From contig JBLYPV010000001.1 of assembly GCA_048538215.1 (NCBI GenBank), positions 333,499 through 397,498 on the forward strand: DNA of 64,000 nt, in the 5' to 3' direction. Positions 53,812 through 60,342 of this stretch are shown in pieces. Numbering within the stretch: position 1 is the first letter of the stretch; every line of letters starts with the position of its first letter. Source of the DNA: Patescibacteria group bacterium. GTDB lineage: Bacteria > Patescibacteriota > Minisyncoccia > Phycocordibacterales > GCA-2747955. The translations under genes and the position numbers were made by a program. The notes under the pieces were generated by a model, which was not told the origin of the DNA, did no database searches, and saw only the letters and a program-made list of their open reading frames with translations.

Positions 53812-54402
53812 TTATAACATCGTCTGATTGATACACTCTTGTATGTATCGCTCTAGTGTTTGCTGATGAGCAGAAAGGGATACGAAATCTTGTTGGTTTA
53901 AGGTATTCTTCATAAATAGTTCTGGAGATATATCTGGAGAAAAAGCTATATCAAAATAGCCAAGTTCGTGCAATATCCGTGCCCTCCCCCATAATTCAAT
54001 ACTATAAAAGTACTTCGGAGCTAAGCTCCTTAGAGCTAGGCTTATCTCATGGAAAATATGATAGAGCACTGAATCACTATCAGCGTGAAGGGACATCTGC
54101 AGAATAAGCGCTCCGAGTCTATCCAATATACCGAGAGCTTCAAAATTATGTACTTGAGTGGTGCTTTCTATCAATCGCCCTCCGGTAATTTGATAGCCCT
54201 TGCGTGACTGAATAGCTTCGAGCTCGATATGGGCAAGCTGGTGTAAAAAATAAGCAAGCTTGGATGACTCTTTGCGCACCGAGGTGGCATGTGCGCTAAT
54301 AAGCCCATAATCACGAGTGAGGATGCGATAGCTCTTATTAGCTTCACCGATATTACTATGCCCCAAAATATAGCCGTAGGTACTTTCGATTTCGTACATA
54401 GC
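53812..54402 (-). CDS. recO: DNA repair protein RecO-like
   Basis: About 195-219 aa with an N-terminal OB-like segment 'EIESTYGYILGHSNIGEANKSYRILTRDYGLISAHA'. Assignment is tentative. Confidence 0.45.
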   Translation of the reverse strand, partial: AMYEIESTYGYILGHSNIGEANKSYRILTRDYGLISAHATSVRKESSKLAYFLHQLAHIELEAIQSRKGYQITGGRLIESTTQVHNFEALGILDRLGALILQMSLHADSDSVLYHIFHEISLALRSLAPKYFYSIELWGRARILHELGYFDIAFSPDISPELFMKNTLNQQDFVSLSAHQQTLERYIQECINQTML

Positions 54403-54470
54403 CATATGGTAGCATAGAGAGTAATCAAATAGAGAAAAGGCGCGCCGGAGGCGCGCCTTTTTGCTATACA

Positions 54471-57400
54471 TTATTCAAGTACTACCATCTCTGCCCTAAA
54501 GGCGAGCTCATTGGCGTATTGAGTGTCTCCATCAAGTGTATCTACAAAATCTACTCCACTGACACCTGCAATATCTTCTAATTCACTGAAATAGCGCTTG
54601 ACCATTCGCTCTCCTGATTCGTCCATTTGCAAATGAAGATATATTTTATCTTTAGGAGAGCAATTTTTATCTTTACGCATATTTTGAATATGTCTGACAA
54701 ACTCTCGAAAATCGCCTTCTTCTTGTAATTCTGGAGTAAGCTCGGAATCAAGCACAACGGGAACATTTGTATTTTTGTCAAAATGTATTGCTTTTACATT
54801 AAGCTCCTCACGAATACTCTGCATCAGTGCTTCATTGATCACATCTGAAAGCATCGTACCTTCATCAGCATTATAGAGCTCATCACGCAAGGTAGCAGAT
54901 GCAAGTGGCTGTCGTACCTTAAGGCCAGCACTCACCCGCGCCTCAAGTCCGCGCGAAACAAGCTCTCTAACTCGTGCCATAACTGCAATACTTTCATAGG
55001 AAATACCCCGGGTAGTCGGCCAGAGCTCGAGGTGTACTGATTCATTCTCACCTGCCTCTCGTAGCTCTCGAAAGATATACTCTGCAGTAAAAGGCATAAA
55101 GGGGGCTATAATTTTTGAAAATTCTTTAAGCACAAAGTACGTAGTACGCTGAGCATTTGCAATATCCTCCCTATCCTTGCCCTTAAATCGAGATCGGCTA
55201 CGACGTATATACCAATTAGAAAAATCCTCTACAAAGTCGTAAAAGGGAGCGCATGCTCGATCAAGCTCATAAGCATCGAGGCCTCGTGTCGCCTGCTCTA
55301 ATACTTCTTCAAGTCGTGAGAGAATCCAGCGATCCAGTGGGTGGGGTGAATCAAATGGACTATGTGTAAAATCTATATTGTCATCTCGATATATTTGGAA
55401 AAAGCTTAAAGTATTTTTAAGTCGAATAACAATTTTTTTATTAACCTCATCGATATCTTTTTCTGAAAGATTGACACTTTCTCCGCGCAACACGGGACTA
55501 TTGAGTAAGAAGTATCGCAGTGCATCTGCACCATATCTATCAAAGACTAGATCAAGCTCAGGATAATTTTGTAGCTTCTTAGACATTTTTTTGCCATCTT
55601 CTGCCATTACAAAGCCTGTCACTATTACATTCTTCATTGGGGACTTCTCAAAAAGTCCTACCCCCAAAGCAAGCAAGCTATAAAACCATCCTCGGGTCTG
55701 ATCTATCGCCTCACAAATAAAATCTGCTGGATAAGCGAAATTATCAATGCGTGATTCTGGTGTATTCTCTCCTTGATAATATTTTGAAGCATAAGGCATT
55801 GAGCCGGATTCATACCAACAATCAAACACTTCGCCTATGAGCTTGTAAGGCTCACCTTTTTCATTTTTATAGCTTACCGCATCAAGATAGGGGCGATGCA
55901 GATCAAGCTCGAATTCATTATTGTGAGGAATAGGAGCAAAATCTAAGTAATATATTTCCTCTTTGCCTGCTTTCGCTTTTTGCTCCTCTCTATATTTTGC
56001 TAATTGCTCATTTGCTACTCCCTCTACTCCTGCTTGAGCAAGGTGTATCATATCGGGGTGTGTGATAAGCAGAATCGTAGCATTTTCATACTGCTCATCT
56101 AATTCATAGATCACTTCAGTAATTCTTTTTTTAGCTTCTCGATAATACTCACCCCCTTCTAAAACAGCATCATAACCCTCTTGGGAAATACCCGCTTGCT
56201 TTACTGCTTCTTTAAATTCCTGCTCTGATGTCCCCGACAAATCATCCCCCAAGTAGCGCTTACGCAAACGATTATCTTCTCGCACTTCTTTAACACTCAA
56301 GGCATTCTCAAGCATAAGGGCAGTTTGCTTGGTGCAATTATAGGGCGAGTGGGCAATCACATCGATTGCCTTTCGCTTATGCTCTCCAAGCATATGGCTA
56401 ATACGCTTGCTTGTATCCAGCACTTCATCTTTACCCCGCTCTGATAGCCGATCAGCTTCTGCACCCACTTCAAGTGACACAAGATTGGTACTGTCTGCCA
56501 CTGATTCTCCATGTGGAATGACAATAAAGTGATTATTAGATCTTAATTTCTCCTGTATCTCATGTATTGAGCCAAGAATCTCATACTCTCCTGTAGTTTG
56601 ATTCTCCCATACAGGAAGTGGTGCTCCCCAAAAGCGAGAACGAGATACCGCCCAATCTACATTATTAGCAATCCAATTATGAAATCTCTTGTGTCCGATG
56701 TGCTCTGGTACCCAGTGCATTGCGCTATTTTCTGCAAGCATTTTCTCTCGTAGCTTGGTGGTGGCTATAAACCAGCTTGAGGTAGCGTAATTGAGAAGTG
56801 GAGTGTCACAACGCCAGCAATGCGGATATGAATGCACTATTTTTTCTTTACTAAACAAGAGCCCGCGATGTGCTAAATATTTAATAACAGCAATATCAGC
56901 AGATTGGTGATCCTCTTTAGACTTGACCAACATCCCAGCAAAATCTACAACCTCTGGAACAAACTGCCCACTAGTGGTCACGTGATGAACCATAGGGATA
57001 TTTTGCTTTTGTGCTAGGTAATAATCATCAGCACCAAAGGCAGGAGCTTCGTGGGCGATTCCTGTACCAGATTCGTCATTTACAAAATCTGCTTCATATA
57101 CTTTCCAGCCATTCTCATGATGCTCGATTGATGTGTCTGTATAAAAGTAATCAAATGGAGGAATATATGATTTGCCCACCAAAGCATCACTTCCCAAAAC
57201 ACTCAGCTCTTCCCACTCGGGAATACCCGCTTGTTGCATCACCTCTTCTAAGCGTGATTGCGCGAGAATATACTGCTCTCTTGTGTCTTCTCGCATCACA
57301 GCGACCTTTACATAAATTACTTCGGGACCCACAGCAATTGCTGTATTTCCCGGTAGTGTCCATGGAGTGGTGGTCCAGGCTAGTAGATAGGTGCCGGGCT

Positions 57401-58085
57401 CGTCTTGTAATTCAAATTTGGCGGTCACTGAAATATCAGTGATATCTGCATACCCCTCGGCTACCTCATTATTTGAAAGTGTAGTCTCACATCGAGGACA
57501 CAAGTGCATCGGCTTATAGCCTTTGTAAACAAGCCCCTTTTTATCTAATTCTTTAAAGGCCCACCAGCAAGACTCAGTATAGAGGGGATCCATGGTTTTA
57601 TAATGATCCTCCATATCTACCCAGCGCCCGGTGCGAGGGATAATCTTCTCCCAAGAATCTTTGTAGGCCAATACCTGTGCTTGTGCAGCGGTATTAAAAT
57701 TAGCAATCCCATAATCAATGATCTCTTTGCGACTATTGAGATTAAGATTCTTTTCAATAATGTTTTCAATTGGTAGACCATGACAATCCCATCCCCATTT
57801 TCGTACTACATGATAGCCTTTCATTGTGTAGTAGCGTGGAATAACATCCTTGACTGTGCCTGGTAAAATATGACCATAGTGGGGCAAGCCCGTGGCAAAT
57901 GGAGGCCCGTCATAAAACACATACTCCCCCATCCCTTCTCTACGAGAAAGGGACTTTTTGAAAATATCTTCTTCCTGCCAGAATTTTAGTATGGCTTCTT
58001 CGTCTAAAGCTGTTTGAGATTTTTGTACCTCTTCACTTTGGCCTTTTAGTTTTGATTTTTGAGTTTTACTATGTATATCAGACAT
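54471..58085 (-). CDS. ileS: isoleucyl-tRNA synthetase carrying a roughly 180-aa histidine-phosphatase-like insertion
   Basis: 'PHYGH' HIGH motif, CP1 editing domain, 'WCISRSRFWGAPLPVW', and 'KMSKK'. It is 1204 aa against a usual 900-1050. Confidence 0.95.
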   Translation of the reverse strand: MSDIHSKTQKSKLKGQSEEVQKSQTALDEEAILKFWQEEDIFKKSLSRREGMGEYVFYDGPPFATGLPHYGHILPGTVKDVIPRYYTMKGYHVVRKWGWDCHGLPIENIIEKNLNLNSRKEIIDYGIANFNTAAQAQVLAYKDSWEKIIPRTGRWVDMEDHYKTMDPLYTESCWWAFKELDKKGLVYKGYKPMHLCPRCETTLSNNEVAEGYADITDISVTAKFELQDEPGTYLLAWTTTPWTLPGNTAIAVGPEVIYVKVAVMREDTREQYILAQSRLEEVMQQAGIPEWEELSVLGSDALVGKSYIPPFDYFYTDTSIEHHENGWKVYEADFVNDESGTGIAHEAPAFGADDYYLAQKQNIPMVHHVTTSGQFVPEVVDFAGMLVKSKEDHQSADIAVIKYLAHRGLLFSKEKIVHSYPHCWRCDTPLLNYATSSWFIATTKLREKMLAENSAMHWVPEHIGHKRFHNWIANNVDWAVSRSRFWGAPLPVWENQTTGEYEILGSIHEIQEKLRSNNHFIVIPHGESVADSTNLVSLEVGAEADRLSERGKDEVLDTSKRISHMLGEHKRKAIDVIAHSPYNCTKQTALMLENALSVKEVREDNRLRKRYLGDDLSGTSEQEFKEAVKQAGISQEGYDAVLEGGEYYREAKKRITEVIYELDEQYENATILLITHPDMIHLAQAGVEGVANEQLAKYREEQKAKAGKEEIYYLDFAPIPHNNEFELDLHRPYLDAVSYKNEKGEPYKLIGEVFDCWYESGSMPYASKYYQGENTPESRIDNFAYPADFICEAIDQTRGWFYSLLALGVGLFEKSPMKNVIVTGFVMAEDGKKMSKKLQNYPELDLVFDRYGADALRYFLLNSPVLRGESVNLSEKDIDEVNKKIVIRLKNTLSFFQIYRDDNIDFTHSPFDSPHPLDRWILSRLEEVLEQATRGLDAYELDRACAPFYDFVEDFSNWYIRRSRSRFKGKDREDIANAQRTTYFVLKEFSKIIAPFMPFTAEYIFRELREAGENESVHLELWPTTRGISYESIAVMARVRELVSRGLEARVSAGLKVRQPLASATLRDELYNADEGTMLSDVINEALMQSIREELNVKAIHFDKNTNVPVVLDSELTPELQEEGDFREFVRHIQNMRKDKNCSPKDKIYLHLQMDESGERMVKRYFSELEDIAGVSGVDFVDTLDGDTQYANELAFRAEMVVLE

Positions 58086-58137
58086 ACTTATATTATTTAG
58101 CTGTGCCTCCCAGTATACCCGATGTGTCGAAAAAATT

Positions 58138-58177
58138 AAACAAAGAAAAAGACTGTGCTGGTTAATCGCGCACAGCC
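58138..58177 (-). terminator. Rho-independent terminator of the upstream ncRNA (just before ileS)
   Basis: Minus strand 'ggctgtgc-gcgattaacca-gcacagtc' followed by 'tttttctttg'. Confidence 0.7.
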
Positions 58178-58584
58178 TTCTGGTGGTGCCCCCGTGGGCA
58201 AAATCTCATGGGCTCTTTTTTTTCAGAGCGAACCCCGGGCTCTGTTACTTCCAACGGAAGTGGTACTGGCACCATACTTCCATAGCGACCTCCTTTCTCT
58301 TGTATGGCACATTTGACGATCAATCGCCCAAATGAGCCAGAAGAAGCCTCCACGTGACCCTCACTAGGAGCGAGGATATTGCGGTAGGGCAACCGCTTGT
58401 CGAGTGGTTAGCAAACGAGCGCCACCACTCTGATAGCTCAACGGTGAAGGTGTGCCGTTGAGGTGTGATCACCTCCTTTCAGGAGCGGCCATTGCCGAGC
58501 TCTTTTGCCTTGATTGCGTCCGTTTCGCGGGCGCAGTGAGCCGGACACTTACGAGTCATTCTCGTCTCCTCTCTAATGATCATC
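58178..58584 (-). ncRNA. rnpB: candidate RNase P RNA (or other structured ncRNA). GC-rich non-coding transcription unit.
   Basis: About 450 nt of high-GC non-coding sequence between ileS and argS. About 50 nt from the predicted TSS it has 'GUAAGUGUCCGGCUCACUGCGCC', compared with the P4 5' consensus GGAAAGUCCGGGCUCCAUAGGGC. About 345 nt from the TSS it has 'ACAGAGCCCGGGGUU', compared with ACAGAAnCCGGCUUA. These two segments can pair. Confidence 0.45.
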
Positions 58585-58590
58585 CCTTTC

Positions 58591-58619
58591 ATTATATTCA
58601 TAATATGCTTGACAATCAA
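58591..58619 (-). promoter_or_regulatory. near-consensus sigma70 promoter (TTGATT-N17-TATAAT) for the ncRNA
   Basis: Minus-strand 'ttgattgtcaagcatattatgaatataat'. Confidence 0.6.
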
Positions 58620-58653
58620 GTAAAATATGTGGATAGCTACTTATCCACAGTTT

Positions 58654-60342
58654 CTACATTTCATCTACTGTATCGATTCCTAAGAGATAGAGTGCGTTGT
58701 GGAGGGTCTGTCCCACGGCTTTTACTAAATCGATATTGGCGCGCATATCAGGATTGGAAGCATCGGCAATTTTGGTCTGAGCATAAAAGCTATTAAATTC
58801 TGAAGCAAGCTCGTAAGCATAGTGAGCAATGTGATGAGGCGAATAATCATCAAGTGAGCGCGTGACCATATCGGGAAATCGCAAAAGCTGGCGCTCAAGC
58901 TCTGGGGCCTTTCCTGTACGGATAGCTGGCTCACTCCCGGTAAGTAATTCTTCTGCCTCCAAGAGAGCACTTTTGGCACGCACAAAAGCATATTGAATAT
59001 AGGGTCCACTCGTGCCCTCAAATGAAAGGTCTCTTTCGAAATCAAAAACGATATTTTTGCCCGTTGCACTACGCAAGATTGCATATTTAAGCGCGGATTG
59101 AGCCACTTTTTCGGCTACTTGCTCTGGATTATCTATATCTCTCCCCTGCATTTTTTCTAATACCCGATTACCCACCTCGTATAATAAATCTTCTGCAAGA
59201 GGCACTTTGCCATCTCGAGAACTAATCTTTCCACTTGAAAGTGCCAAGCGCCCGTGATGAATAAAGTGTGATTTTTCTGACCAGCTTGGATTTATTTGCT
59301 CAACCGCTTTTTTAAGTAATTGAAAATGCTGTTTTTGCTCTATATCTGTGACCGTCAACGAACAATCAAAATTATAAGTGGCAAACTTTTTAGATATAAG
59401 CCCTGTATCTTTGCATAGGTAGGTGCCAAATCCTTGAGAATTGATGAATACATTATCAAAAAGGCCATATTTTGATCCTTCGAAAATAATCGCTCCGTCT
59501 GACTCCACAAACACACTTCCTGTGTAAGTTCGGACTATCTCCTTGCCTACTATTTCACATTCTGACTCAAAAAATAATCGTTCAAAACTACTACCTAAGC
59601 GAGTAGTGATAGATTGAAAATACTCCAAAGAAAGTGCGCGTCCTTCCTTGTATAATCTATAGGCATCAGTATCTTGGCTTTCATATATTTCTCTATTAAT
59701 TTCGTCAATACGCATCTTGGCATCTCTATCTTCTTTGTAGGCTTGCGAGCCGTGAGTATACGCCTCACCTACTTGCTCAATAGTAAATTGATTGGTGTAA
59801 GATAAATCTATCAAGCCCCAAATTGCCTTCGCTATCCCCGGTGAAACATCAGAAGGAAACGACACCGTGTGTGTTTTGGCTCCTGATATGGCGACTATGC
59901 GCTCGAGGGATGCCCCAACAAAATTATTGACCAAGTGCCCAATATGAAATGGCTTAAAAAGATTGGGAGAGCTGTGCTCTAGTAAGTATGTTTGTGTTGC
60001 AAGCTTGTCATTAGCTCCCCACTCGTTTTTAGAATCTATAATTTTTTGTTTAAGGGAAGCAAAAAATGTATTCGAAAGAATAAAATTGATATAGCCAGAG
60101 CCCGCGACCTCTACTCTATCTACTTCACTTGGGAGCCGAGCTCCCAAGTGTGTGGTGATTTGCTCGGCAAGCTCACGAGGATTTTGCCCCAATTGCTTGC
60201 CGAGCTTCATTGCTAGGGGCGTCGCAAAGTCTCCCCTACTTAATTCAACTGGGTACTCTAGCGCAATATCCCCATCATATTCTATCCCCGCCTGAGTGAC
60301 GGCATCTTGCAATAAAGTAGTGAGCTTGGCACGAATATTCAT
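58654..60342 (-). CDS. argS: arginyl-tRNA synthetase
   Basis: 'SSPNLFKPFHIGHL' HIGH-region plus the DALR anticodon-binding domain. Confidence 0.95.
   Translation of the reverse strand: MNIRAKLTTLLQDAVTQAGIEYDGDIALEYPVELSRGDFATPLAMKLGKQLGQNPRELAEQITTHLGARLPSEVDRVEVAGSGYINFILSNTFFASLKQKIIDSKNEWGANDKLATQTYLLEHSSPNLFKPFHIGHLVNNFVGASLERIVAISGAKTHTVSFPSDVSPGIAKAIWGLIDLSYTNQFTIEQVGEAYTHGSQAYKEDRDAKMRIDEINREIYESQDTDAYRLYKEGRALSLEYFQSITTRLGSSFERLFFESECEIVGKEIVRTYTGSVFVESDGAIIFEGSKYGLFDNVFINSQGFGTYLCKDTGLISKKFATYNFDCSLTVTDIEQKQHFQLLKKAVEQINPSWSEKSHFIHHGRLALSSGKISSRDGKVPLAEDLLYEVGNRVLEKMQGRDIDNPEQVAEKVAQSALKYAILRSATGKNIVFDFERDLSFEGTSGPYIQYAFVRAKSALLEAEELLTGSEPAIRTGKAPELERQLLRFPDMVTRSLDDYSPHHIAHYAYELASEFNSFYAQTKIADASNPDMRANIDLVKAVGQTLHNALYLLGIDTVDEM

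What the first reader, a model, noticed from the sequence alone, without database searches (positions are those of the whole stretch)
55988..56534. Histidine-phosphatase (PGAM/SixA-like) domain inserted into isoleucyl-tRNA synthetase
IleRS is 1204 aa. About 180 extra residues (roughly aa 518-700) lie between the conserved 'WGAPLPVW' segment and the 'DCWYESGSMPYAS'/KMSKS region. The insert contains 'HFIVIPHGESVADS', 'LSERGKDEV...IDVIAHSPYNCTKQTALML' and 'ILLITHPDMIHLAQ'. These are the three landmark segments of the histidine phosphatase fold, with the RHG arginine replaced by Pro (IPHGES). No such insertion in IleRS is known to the annotator.
Basis: partly seen in the sequence, partly recalled or inferred. 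Interest (0 to 1): 0.6.

Follow-up and report, generated by a model that had tools for sequence, protein, structure and literature searches.

The report
Inactivated phosphatase domain inside isoleucyl-tRNA synthetase
This bacterium's isoleucyl-tRNA synthetase really does carry a histidine-phosphatase domain of about 210 residues inside its catalytic core; hundreds of related ultra-small (Patescibacteria) bacteria have the same module with an intact active site in IleRS or ValRS, or as a separate gene next to ileS, but in this genome the fold is kept and the catalytic pocket is lost.

Summary
The 1204-aa IleRS (54471-58085, minus strand) has a 213-residue insertion (aa 514-726) in the CP3 subdomain. 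It matches Pfam His_Phos_1 above threshold and models as a PGAM-type fold.

The insertion is not a one-off. All 120 closest IleRS homologues and at least 80 species-level Patescibacteria genomes carry it at the same site. Some relatives have two tandem copies in IleRS, or copies at other sites. 73 of 120 related ValRS carry it, one partial ValRS has four copies, and one protein is a TsaC fusion. In 5 of 6 cases examined the stand-alone form is a ~190-aa gene next to an insert-less ileS.

Every other IleRS insert surveyed keeps the catalytic Arg, His, Arg and Glu/Asp, and all but one keep the second His. The window's copy alone has R524P, N531D, R584C and E609K. Its insert evolves 2.3-5.6 times faster than in sister lineages, while the rest of the enzyme does not. 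All 43 hydrophobic core positions are kept. The best reading is a pseudo-phosphatase kept as a structural part of a working type-2 IleRS.

The substrate of the active family is unknown. I found no paper describing this architecture. The closest precedent is the CAAD insertion in cyanobacterial class I synthetases.

The parts
54471..58085 (-). Isoleucyl-tRNA synthetase (type 2, 1204 aa) that hosts the insertion. It is identical to NCBI MFW0871241.1.
   Evidence: ORF. TIGR00392 843 bits against a cut-off of 621. Full-length AF2 model: pLDDT 88, pTM 0.79. Foldseek best matches are type-2 and eukaryotic IleRS 8c8u, 8wnd and 7d5c, TMt 0.81-0.88. Accession.
57870..57881 (-). HIGH signature (HYGH, aa 69-72) of the aminoacylation site, intact
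57357..57374 (-). CP1 editing-domain Thr-rich motif TTTPWT (aa 238-243), intact
   Evidence: T217-T222 are invariant in alignment A2.
57042..57068 (-). CP1 editing-domain motif GTGIAHEAP (aa 340-348), intact
56613..56654 (-). CP2-CP3 linker WAVSRSRFWGAPLP (aa 478-491), the last conserved IleRS segment before the insertion. The homologous yeast segment lines the tRNA A76/reveromycin pocket.
   Evidence: Pocket role from PMC7955072.
55908..56546 (-). Whole insertion in CP3 (aa 514-726, 213 residues), replacing about 7 residues of insert-less IleRS
   Evidence: for the boundaries. CP3 is residues 473-534 in C. albicans IleRS (PMC7191050), and the insertion falls between 6ldk residues 497 and 505.
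55950..56534 (-). His_Phos_1 (PGAM-type) domain core, aa 518-712
   Evidence: Pfam 50-55 bits. AF2 of aa 508-735: pLDDT 92.3, pTM 0.90. Foldseek matches PspA 4ij5/4ij6, Rv2419c and PhoE 1h2e with probability 1.0 and TM 0.64-0.72.
56511..56516 (-). Degenerate RHG motif: P524 (CCA) replaces the pocket Arg. The nucleophile His525 (CAT) is kept.
   Evidence: The aligned His is the residue mutated in the PspA H9A structure 4ij6.
56493..56495 (-). D531 in place of the Asn conserved in at least 90% of family members (RHGExxxN)
56334..56336 (-). C584 in place of the second phosphate-pocket Arg (SPxxR motif)
56259..56261 (-). K609 in place of the acid/base Glu
56058..56060 (-). H676, the second active-site His, kept
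55920..55928 (-). P-H-N (aa 720-722) in the return linker from the module to CP3. It is nearly invariant in insert-bearing IleRS and absent from both insert-less IleRS and stand-alone phosphatases.
55806..55823 (-). DCWYES (aa 755-760), where the second half of the Rossmann fold resumes
55575..55589 (-). KMSKS signature (KMSKK, aa 833-837), intact
58086..58653 (-). Context: 568-nt gap between argS and ileS. In relatives with an insert-less IleRS, the stand-alone His_Phos gene lies between argS and ileS. No relic of it is detectable here.
   Evidence: for relatives. One search found no HMM or tblastn signal.
58654..60342 (-). Context: arginyl-tRNA synthetase, the conserved upstream neighbour (argS - [His_Phos] - ileS - recO synteny)
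   Evidence: Pfam. ArgRS lies in the same orientation in 54 of 80 insert-bearing loci.
53812..54471 (-). Context: RecO-like gene, the conserved downstream neighbour
   Evidence: Pfam RecO_N 38.7 bits. RecO found in 32 of 80 loci.

Best explanation
The gene is a working type-2 isoleucyl-tRNA synthetase. Its CP3 subdomain is interrupted by a complete branch-1 histidine-phosphatase (PGAM-fold) domain.

The module belongs to a Patescibacteria-specific subfamily that is tied to adenylate-forming enzymes of the tRNA world. It occurs in four forms:
- as a ~190-aa gene next to ileS, immediately upstream in four of six cases;
- as one or two tandem in-frame copies in CP3 of IleRS, and up to three in CP3 of ValRS;
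- at other loops around the KMSKS half of the catalytic domain;
- once fused to TsaC.

In nearly all of those copies the catalytic Arg-His...Arg...Glu...His set is intact, so the family at large is an active phosphohydrolase working in cis or in complex with the synthetase.

In this genome the module has become a pseudo-enzyme. Four phosphate-pocket and catalytic residues are replaced (R524P, N531D, R584C, E609K), and the insert has evolved several-fold faster than in sister lineages. Every hydrophobic core position and the linkers are nevertheless kept. The domain therefore still folds and serves only as a structural part of CP3, and aminoacylation and editing proceed as in any IleRS.

Shown: the domain identity, the insertion site, the distribution, the residue losses, the rate asymmetry and the core retention.

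Inferred: loss of phosphatase activity, and a structural role for what remains.

Inferred with low confidence (about 0.3): the active family members hydrolyse a phosphate-bearing by-product or substrate at the adenylation site. PPi or a nucleotide phosphate are the only chemical species shared by IleRS, ValRS and TsaC.
For: Domain identity.

Insertion site in CP3.

Host enzyme intact: HIGH, KMSKS and the editing motifs are present. The full-length model matches IleRS structures.

Family:
- 120 of 120 closest IleRS carry PF00300.
- 422 50%-identity representatives score E <= 1e-30.

Catalytic pattern: R-H..R..E..H in 118 of 119 relatives (the exception has Ser for the second His) and in 80 of 80 loci. 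Only the window reads P-H..C..K..H.

Pfam score: 50 bits here against 89-112 bits in relatives.

Rate asymmetry: the Tajima relative-rate test on the insert gives 44-56 window-specific changes against 9-19 in sisters (p 1.6e-3 to 6e-8). The rest of the protein gives p > 0.09 (identities).

Fold retention: 43 of 43 family-hydrophobic core columns are still hydrophobic. Of 31 columns that are at least 90% conserved, 7 are lost, and 4 of those are the pocket residues.

Link to ileS:
- Stand-alone genes lie directly upstream of insert-less IleRS in L081, L083, L085 and L088, and adjacent in L086.
- None of the 80 insert-bearing loci has an extra stand-alone copy.
- The L081 insert-less IleRS is 58-60% identical to insert-bearing ones, and L083/L088 are a distant IleRS type.

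Other hosts: ValRS and TsaC.
Against: No enzyme assay exists, so inactivity is inferred from residues alone. Both histidines and E527 are kept, so a residual or altered activity cannot be excluded.

The AF2 confidence for the insert rests on an alignment of intact relatives. It is not independent proof that this divergent copy folds.

Only 64 kb of the genome was available. I could not test whether a stand-alone phosphatase elsewhere compensates.

The substrate proposal is weak:
- No branch-1 member is known to me to hydrolyse PPi.
- The TsaC fusion is a single representative.
- The search profile was built from IleRS inserts, which biases the list of partners.
- It is unexplained why only one or two of the twenty synthetases would need the activity.

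The NJ tree of domain copies is unresolved, so the direction of change (adjacent gene to insert, or insert to gene) is unknown.
Confidence: 0.8

Rival explanations
1. The window's insert is still an active enzyme with a remodelled active site. For example, it could use His525 and His676 with Lys609 on a substrate that is not a dianionic phosphomonoester.
For: Both histidines, Gly526, Glu527, Glu646 and Arg654 are retained. The fold core is under selection. The ORF is uninterrupted.
Against: Both pocket arginines, the Asn and the acid/base Glu are lost together. Among the IleRS copies surveyed these positions are essentially invariant. The 2.3-5.6-fold rate acceleration fits relaxed rather than redirected selection. 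The Pfam score is halved relative to relatives.
Confidence: 0.1
2. The phosphatase has no mechanistic link to aminoacylation. It is a general small-molecule housekeeping phosphatase that rides on large, insertion-tolerant, constitutively expressed class Ia synthetases for co-expression. The window lineage simply no longer needs it.
For: Copies occur at three or four different loops and in tandem arrays of 2-4. The hosts IleRS and ValRS are also the commonest hosts of the unrelated CAAD insertion (PMC4893482). The nearest characterised relatives are broad or small-molecule phosphatases: PhoE, PspA, CobC and GpmB. The inserts are mildly acidic, median net charge -5. Activity is dispensable here.
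Against: Stand-alone genes sit 1-10 nt upstream of ileS of two divergent IleRS types. The top 150 relatives are almost only IleRS, ValRS or stand-alone, plus one TsaC fusion. The domain is inserted internally, around the active-site half of the Rossmann fold, rather than fused at a terminus.
Confidence: 0.3
3. The active module works on a macromolecular phosphate. Either it removes a 2'/3'-(pyro)phosphate that blocks the tRNA CCA end, or it dephosphorylates the synthetase itself after attack by a toxin kinase.
For: CP3 follows directly after the CP2-3 linker that lines the tRNA A76 pocket (PMC7955072). The superfamily includes protein and phospho-His phosphatases (established knowledge; SixA model). 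A PemK toxin gene lies next to one ValRS locus.
Against: TsaC, a third fusion partner, does not bind tRNA, by my knowledge of the t6A pathway. Copies at several different sites cannot all reach one tRNA phosphate. There is no basic surface and no hit in defence-system models.
Confidence: 0.12
4. The insert is an ordinary IleRS-specific CP3 elaboration, an assembly chimera, or a mobile intein-like element. It is not a recruited phosphatase domain.
For: CP3 is structurally variable among IleRS (PMC7191050). The return linker ends in His-Asn, as inteins do.
Against: The Pfam and fold matches to His_Phos_1 are unambiguous. The same architecture occurs in hundreds of independent assemblies. Base composition is unremarkable across the region. 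The whole length is taken up by the phosphatase fold, the residue after His-Asn is variable, not the Cys/Ser/Thr that follows an intein, and Pfam finds no Hint domain.
Confidence: 0.02

Closest known systems
CAAD (Curt1-derived) domain insertions in cyanobacterial class I aminoacyl-tRNA synthetases (PMC4893482)
   Same: One phylum recurrently recruits a domain that also exists as a stand-alone protein into monomeric class I synthetases. ValRS and IleRS are the main hosts. The insertions are internal, at more than one site. Contiguous stand-alone and synthetase genes occur in related species. The synthetase stays active.
   Different: [quoted passage not shown] Here the recruited module is an enzyme with a conserved active site. 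It sits inside CP3 and around the KMSKS half of the catalytic domain, often in tandem copies, and the phylum is Patescibacteria.
IleRS with an inserted GNAT acetyltransferase (NCBIfam NF040702, ileS_w_GNAT)
   Same: A curated example of a second enzyme domain inserted into IleRS. One relative (P0039, 1325 aa) carries both a GNAT in CP1 (aa 285-415) and the His_Phos in CP3.
   Different: The domain and the insertion site (CP1) are different. The window protein scores only 302 bits against a cut-off of 1999 and has no GNAT.
Small branch-1 histidine phosphatases: PspA phosphoserine phosphatase (4IJ5), PhoE/YhfR (1H2E, 1EBB), CobC alpha-ribazole phosphatase (6NRU, 6E4B)
   Same: Same fold and size (~200 aa), and the same catalytic motif set in the family consensus. 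They are the best sequence-profile and fold matches: E 9e-25 to 1e-21, TM 0.64-0.72.
   Different: Those are free-standing metabolic enzymes. No NCBIfam equivalog cut-off is reached by the stand-alone relatives (best dPGM_arch 102 against 225, CobC 99 against 163). The window's copy lacks the pocket residues.
Bifunctional RNase H/acid phosphatase (NF005567; I recognise this as the Rv2228c type from memory)
   Same: A CobC-like His_Phos domain fused to an enzyme that acts on nucleic acid. It is a recurrent weak hit for the insert.
   Different: That is an end-to-end fusion, not an insertion, with a different partner. Scores are far below the cut-off (28-89 bits against 326).
Canonical connective-peptide insertions of class Ia synthetases (CP1 editing domain, CP2, CP3, LeuRS-specific domain)
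   Same: The Rossmann fold of class Ia enzymes is a well-known host for inserted modules (PMC13114784). The insert lies within one of them, CP3.
   Different: The canonical insertions are synthetase-specific folds with roles in editing or tRNA handling. This one is a recruited member of an unrelated enzyme superfamily.

Membership tests
Histidine phosphatase superfamily, branch 1 (Pfam PF00300) | Profile match above the curated gathering score | tested here: met
   50.2 and 55.0 bits against a cut-off of 21.7
Histidine phosphatase superfamily, branch 1 (Pfam PF00300) | PGAM-type alpha/beta fold | tested here: met
   AF2 pLDDT 92.3, pTM 0.90. Foldseek probability 1.0 and TM 0.64-0.72 to PspA, PhoE and Rv2419c. 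The model depends on an alignment of intact relatives.
Histidine phosphatase superfamily, branch 1 (Pfam PF00300) | RHG motif: pocket Arg followed by the nucleophilic His | tested here: not met
   His525 is present but the Arg is Pro524
Histidine phosphatase superfamily, branch 1 (Pfam PF00300) | Second pocket Arg, acid/base Glu and second His | tested here: not met
   C584 and K609 replace the Arg and Glu. H676 is kept.
Histidine phosphatase superfamily, branch 1 (Pfam PF00300) | Phosphatase or mutase activity through a phospho-His intermediate | not testable with these tools
   Needs an enzyme assay
Isoleucyl-tRNA synthetase (TIGR00392; type 2) | Equivalog profile above cut-off, and fold | tested here: met
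   843 bits against 621. Full-length model TMt 0.81-0.88 to 8c8u, 8wnd and 7d5c.
Isoleucyl-tRNA synthetase (TIGR00392; type 2) | HIGH and KMSKS signatures, CP1 editing motifs, anticodon-binding domain | tested here: met
   HYGH 69-72, KMSKK 833-837, TTTPWT 238-243, GTGIAHEAP 340-348. Anticodon_1 113 bits and DUF5915.
   Same site and linker as 120 of 120 homologues and 80 of 80 genome loci
   The window is the only IleRS copy reading P-H..C..K..H. Partly degenerate copies do exist in ValRS.
   12.0 and 16.5 bits against a cut-off of 74.5
Cofactor-dependent phosphoglycerate mutase (NF038349, TIGR01258) | Equivalog profile above cut-off | tested here: not met
   34-39 bits against 225 for the window. 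Stand-alone relatives score 89-102 against 225.
IleRS with GNAT domain (NF040702) | Profile above cut-off, and a GNAT domain present | tested here: not met
   302 bits against 1999, and no GNAT Pfam hit
Intein / self-splicing insertion | Hint fold, an N-terminal Cys/Ser nucleophile, and a C-terminal His-Asn followed by Cys/Ser/Thr | tested here: not met
   No Hint domain in Pfam. The insert is wholly a His_Phos fold. The residue after PHN is variable: E, D, S and others.

The most novel reading that the evidence does not exclude
In Patescibacteria a dedicated histidine phosphatase is an obligate partner of adenylate-forming tRNA-world enzymes (IleRS, ValRS, TsaC), supplied either as an adjacent gene or as domains built into the catalytic core. 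It would add a so far undescribed third catalytic activity to class Ia synthetases. Examples are local hydrolysis of PPi or a nucleotide phosphate that makes adenylate formation irreversible in cells with a PPi-based economy, or removal of a blocking phosphate. The window's genome would be a natural knock-out of that activity.
Probability: 0.3. Interest if true: 0.8.

Novelty: new variant of a known kind. Interest (0 to 1): 0.6.

Why it matters
Aminoacyl-tRNA synthetases are among the best-studied enzymes. Accessory domains in bacterial ones are usually for editing, tRNA binding or localisation. Here a second, unrelated enzyme sits inside the catalytic core. Its active site is conserved across hundreds of species of a major bacterial radiation. 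It is duplicated up to four times, present in two sister synthetases, and replaced in relatives by a gene abutting ileS.

That is classic Rosetta-stone evidence for a functional partnership that nobody appears to have described or tested. It gives a concrete biochemical question: what phosphate does IleRS/ValRS chemistry in Patescibacteria need removed? It also gives a natural inactive variant (this window) for comparison.

There is a practical point as well. Automatic pipelines name these proteins 'class I tRNA ligase family protein', and the embedded PF00300 hit could, in principle, be miscounted as a phosphoglycerate mutase in metabolic reconstructions of CPR genomes.

Tried and rejected
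1. A word-indexed search with the insert alone found nothing. The window's copy is too divergent. The full-length query and a profile were needed.

2. A relic of a stand-alone His_Phos gene in the 568-nt argS-ileS gap: there is no HMM or tblastn signal. No other His_Phos occurs anywhere in the 64-kb window.

3. A known RNA in that gap: no Rfam family and no tRNA or tmRNA. Only 62 nt resemble the equivalent region of the closest relative.

4. An intein or mobile-element reading of the His-Asn linker: rejected.

5. A defence-system affiliation: no meaningful PADLOC hit.

6. A detoxification idea: GNAT plus phosphatase against aminoacyl-adenylate antibiotics, by analogy with MccE and MccH (bioRxiv 10.1101/2020.03.04.977132). 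I consider it chemically unlikely, because His_Phos enzymes act on terminal phosphates, not on adenylate-type phosphoramidates. It was not pursued.

7. An NJ tree of domain copies to order the events: star-like and without support values, so it was not used for any claim.

8. Geometry of the phosphatase pocket relative to the adenylation site: model coordinates are not exposed, so the full-length model gave only confidence values and the fold match.

10. The afdb50 fold library was unavailable.

11. The look-up of the window protein's contig failed.

12. Ten literature searches found no description of a His_Phos domain in IleRS or ValRS.
Full report
OBSERVATION

The ORF at 54471..58085 on the minus strand encodes a 1204-aa protein. 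It is an isoleucyl-tRNA synthetase by every test:
- TIGR00392 scores 843 bits against a cut-off of 621.
- Pfam finds tRNA-synt_1, Anticodon_1 and DUF5915.
- A full-length AlphaFold2 model (pLDDT 88, pTM 0.79) has type-2 and eukaryotic IleRS structures as its best PDB matches: 8c8u, 8wnd and 7d5c, target-normalised TM 0.81-0.88.

The protein is identical to NCBI MFW0871241.1. That entry is from a Patescibacteria metagenome-assembled genome on a 622,806-bp contig and is named only 'class I tRNA ligase family protein'.

Local alignment with insert-less IleRS of known structure stops at window residue 512-513 (...GSIHEIQEK) and resumes at residue 727 (LDLHRPY...). Those enzymes have about seven residues in between.

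In Candida albicans IleRS the CP3 subdomain is residues 473-534 (PMC7191050). The break falls between residues 497 and 505 of that enzyme, so the insertion sits in the middle of CP3. CP3 begins just after the CP2-3 linker (ARDWNVSRNRYWG in yeast, WAVSRSRFWGAP here). That linker helps to form the pocket for the tRNA acceptor end that reveromycin A occupies (PMC7955072).

About a third of the relatives have a CxxC...CxC zinc knuckle flanking the insertion point. The window protein has none of the four cysteines.

WHAT THE INSERT IS

- Pfam His_Phos_1 matches at 50.2 bits in the whole protein and 55.0 bits in the excised insert, against a cut-off of 21.7.
- A profile of 25 inserts matches solved phosphatases by sequence: PspA 9e-25, PhoE 5e-23, CobC 1e-21.
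- An AlphaFold2 model of aa 508-735 is confident (pLDDT 92.3, pTM 0.90). Foldseek places it in the PGAM fold with probability 1.0 and TM 0.64-0.72 to PspA, Rv2419c and PhoE.
- It is not specifically SixA-like (12-16.5 bits against 74.5) and is not a phosphoglycerate mutase equivalog (34-39 bits against 225).

THE ACTIVE SITE IS GONE HERE AND ONLY HERE

I aligned the 120 closest IleRS homologues (45-64% identical). The catalytic pattern Arg-His-Gly...Arg...Glu...His is present in 118 of the 119 others; the remaining one has Ser for the second His. The window protein reads Pro524-His525-Gly526...Cys584...Lys609...His676. The pocket Asn (RHGExxxN) is Asp531.

The same holds in 80 of 80 species-level genome loci. 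It also holds in the copies among the 150 best 50%-identity representatives.

Relatives score 89-112 bits on His_Phos_1, against 50 here.

The rate asymmetry is restricted to the insert:
- Against sisters P0002, P0003 and P0005, the body of the enzyme is 66-71% identical but the insert only 39%. The sisters keep insert and body equally similar to each other.
- Tajima relative-rate tests give 44-56 window-specific changes against 9-19 sister-specific changes in the insert (p from 1.6e-3 to 6e-8).
- The same tests give no asymmetry in the rest of the protein (p > 0.09).

The region is nevertheless not decaying. All 43 columns that are hydrophobic in at least 90% of the family are hydrophobic in the window protein. 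Of 31 columns conserved at 90% or more, it has lost seven, and four of those are exactly the phosphate-pocket and catalytic residues.

This is the signature of a pseudo-enzyme: the fold is kept and the chemistry lost. The host enzyme's own signatures are intact: HYGH 69-72, KMSKK 833-837, TTTPWT 238-243 and GTGIAHEAP 340-348.

THE FAMILY BEHIND IT

All 120 best IleRS hits carry PF00300 and are 1143-1325 aa long.

The 80 retrieved loci all contain the insert. Their records are labelled Patescibacteria: Paceibacterota/Paceibacteria, Nomura-, Campbell-, Taylor- and Zambryskibacteria, Parcubacteria and Minisyncoccia. Many TPA assemblies are labelled 'uncultured Candidatus Saccharibacteria', a label I could not check.

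A filter-free profile search of 1.84 billion representatives gave 422 proteins at E <= 1e-30. The best 150 comprise 119 IleRS (many of them fragments), 2 ValRS, 26 proteins that are nothing but the phosphatase domain, one fusion to TsaC, and two with short unexplained extensions.

The architectures are varied:
- Tandem pairs in CP3: P0199, P0234, P0253, P0261.
- Copies between DxWFxS and KMSKS: P0164, P0186.
- Copies after KMSKS and before the anticodon domain: P0186, P0233, P0198, P0260.
- Four copies in one partial ValRS: P0121.

Every copy in these multi-copy IleRS keeps the catalytic set; one of the two copies in the ValRS P0250 lacks the Glu.

ValRS of Peregrinibacteria and Gracilibacteria form a second large host family. 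73 of the 120 closest ValRS carry one to three copies, mostly at the homologous CP3 site. In ValRS some copies are partly degenerate. About 26 of 89 lack the Glu, and about ten lack both the Glu and the second His. Persistence after loss of catalytic residues is therefore not unique to this window. It is unique among the IleRS copies examined.

ROSETTA-STONE EVIDENCE

I looked up six of the ~190-aa stand-alone proteins in their contigs.
- Four lie directly upstream, on the same strand and 1-10 nt from an insert-less IleRS: L081, L083, L085 and L088.
- One lies between argS and a convergent ileS: L086.
- One is on a 3-kb contig next to a class II synthetase: L089.

The gene order argS - His_Phos - ileS - (small ORF) - recO is the same as in the window (argS 58654-60342, ileS, recO 53812-54471). 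It is also the same as in insert-bearing loci, where ArgRS is present in 54 of 80 and RecO in 32 of 80.

None of the 80 insert-bearing loci has an additional stand-alone copy within 6 kb. The two states therefore look complementary.

The insert-less IleRS of L081 is 58-60% identical to insert-bearing IleRS, which places it inside that family. The IleRS of L083 and L088 belong to a distant type (37-38% identical) and still have the phosphatase gene immediately upstream.

One representative (P0221) fuses the same phosphatase subfamily to a Sua5/YciO/YrdC (TsaC) domain.

HOW IT MOST LIKELY WORKS

Shown: a recruited PGAM-fold module whose catalytic set is under strong purifying selection in nearly all IleRS copies. 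It is physically or genomically coupled to IleRS, ValRS and, once, TsaC.

Inferred: the family is an active phosphohydrolase that works with these enzymes.

The three partners share one chemistry, ATP to acyl-adenylate plus PPi. TsaC, to my knowledge, does not bind tRNA. My preferred guess (about 0.3) is therefore hydrolysis of PPi or a nucleotide phosphate at the adenylation site. Cleavage of a phosphoanhydride by a histidine-phosphatase-superfamily domain has a precedent in the PPIP5K phosphatase domain (PMC11836120 and PMC13573052, listed). No branch-1 enzyme is known to me to hydrolyse PPi.

An equally likely rival (about 0.3) is a general small-molecule phosphatase that merely rides on insertion-tolerant class Ia enzymes. 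Supporting this are the multiple sites, the tandem arrays, the mildly acidic surfaces (median net charge -5) and the PhoE/PspA/CobC-like sequence.

A tRNA-end or protein phosphatase is less likely (about 0.12).

For the window itself the mechanism is simpler. The module is a folded but inactive excursion of CP3, and the enzyme functions as an ordinary type-2 IleRS (confidence about 0.8).

COMPARISON WITH WHAT IS KNOWN

The closest precedent is the CAAD domain of cyanobacteria. It is derived from stand-alone Curt1 proteins and was recruited repeatedly into ValRS, IleRS and other monomeric class I synthetases at internal positions. Contiguous gltX-curt1 genes occur in related species (PMC4893482). 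The evolutionary pattern is the same. The differences are that CAAD is a membrane anchor placed away from the active site, whereas this module is an enzyme placed in the catalytic core.

NCBIfam already curates an IleRS with an inserted GNAT domain (NF040702). One relative, P0039, has both GNAT and His_Phos.

No NCBIfam equivalog cut-off is reached by the stand-alone proteins. No PADLOC defence model matches meaningfully.

Ten full-text searches found no paper that describes a histidine phosphatase in IleRS or ValRS. A 2026 survey of domain insertions mentions synthetases as hosts but not this pair (PMC13114784). The architecture is visible in precomputed Pfam annotations, so it is undescribed rather than invisible.

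VERDICT

The feature is a new variant of a known kind: lineage-specific domain recruitment by class I synthetases.

The window holds the one inactivated IleRS copy found among several hundred. That makes it less interesting as an enzyme but useful as a natural control.

Interest is 0.6. It rests mainly on the family-level partnership between a phosphatase and IleRS, ValRS and TsaC, whose substrate is unknown and directly testable.

Noticed in passing
window 58086-58653 (between argS and ileS): A 568-nt non-coding gap that is GC-rich (about 0.53 against about 0.42 around it). On the ileS strand it folds much better than shuffles (-195 kcal/mol, z = -4.1, 0 of 100 shuffles as good). It has no Rfam family and no tRNA or tmRNA. 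Only a 62-nt stretch containing a hairpin resembles the equivalent region of the nearest relative (L090). It could be an ileS leader or an unknown RNA.
   Followed up: partly
P0250/L087 and proteins P0271-P0384 (ValRS of Peregrinibacteria/Gracilibacteria): ValRS of a second Patescibacteria group carries one to three copies of the same His_Phos module, mostly at the homologous CP3 site, and proteins reach 1626 aa. A subclade has lost the Glu and the second His (patterns RHGENRSN/RHGENRAN) while keeping RHG and the second Arg.
   Followed up: partly
P0221 / L091:977-2140: A 387-aa protein fuses a Sua5/YciO/YrdC (TsaC, threonylcarbamoyl-AMP synthase) domain to the same His_Phos subfamily. It is flanked by a HAD hydrolase and a PD-(D/E)XK nuclease-like gene. 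Only one representative was seen.
   Followed up: partly
P0039 (1325 aa IleRS relative): This relative carries a GNAT acetyltransferase domain inside the CP1 editing region (aa 285-415) in addition to the His_Phos in CP3. NCBIfam has a dedicated model for GNAT-containing IleRS (NF040702).
   Followed up: no
window IleRS aa 495, 498, 741, 743 (nt about 55857-56603): The CxxC...CxC zinc knuckle that flanks the insertion point in about a third of relatives, and in the insert-less L081 enzyme, is absent here (N, T, N, K at those positions).
   Followed up: partly
window 54471 (junction of ileS and the RecO-like ORF): The longest RecO-like ORF starts on the last base of the ileS stop codon, which suggests translational coupling. 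The Pfam RecO_N match begins only at residue 30, so the true start may be further downstream.
   Followed up: no
L087:162-596: A PemK-family toxin gene lies immediately upstream of the double-insert ValRS P0250.
   Followed up: no
L083:2709-5663 and L088:4596-7463: These genomes use a clearly different IleRS type (37-38% identical to the window's family, with motif DVGNPWLDAG instead of DCWFESG). They still have the stand-alone phosphatase gene 1-8 nt upstream.
   Followed up: partly
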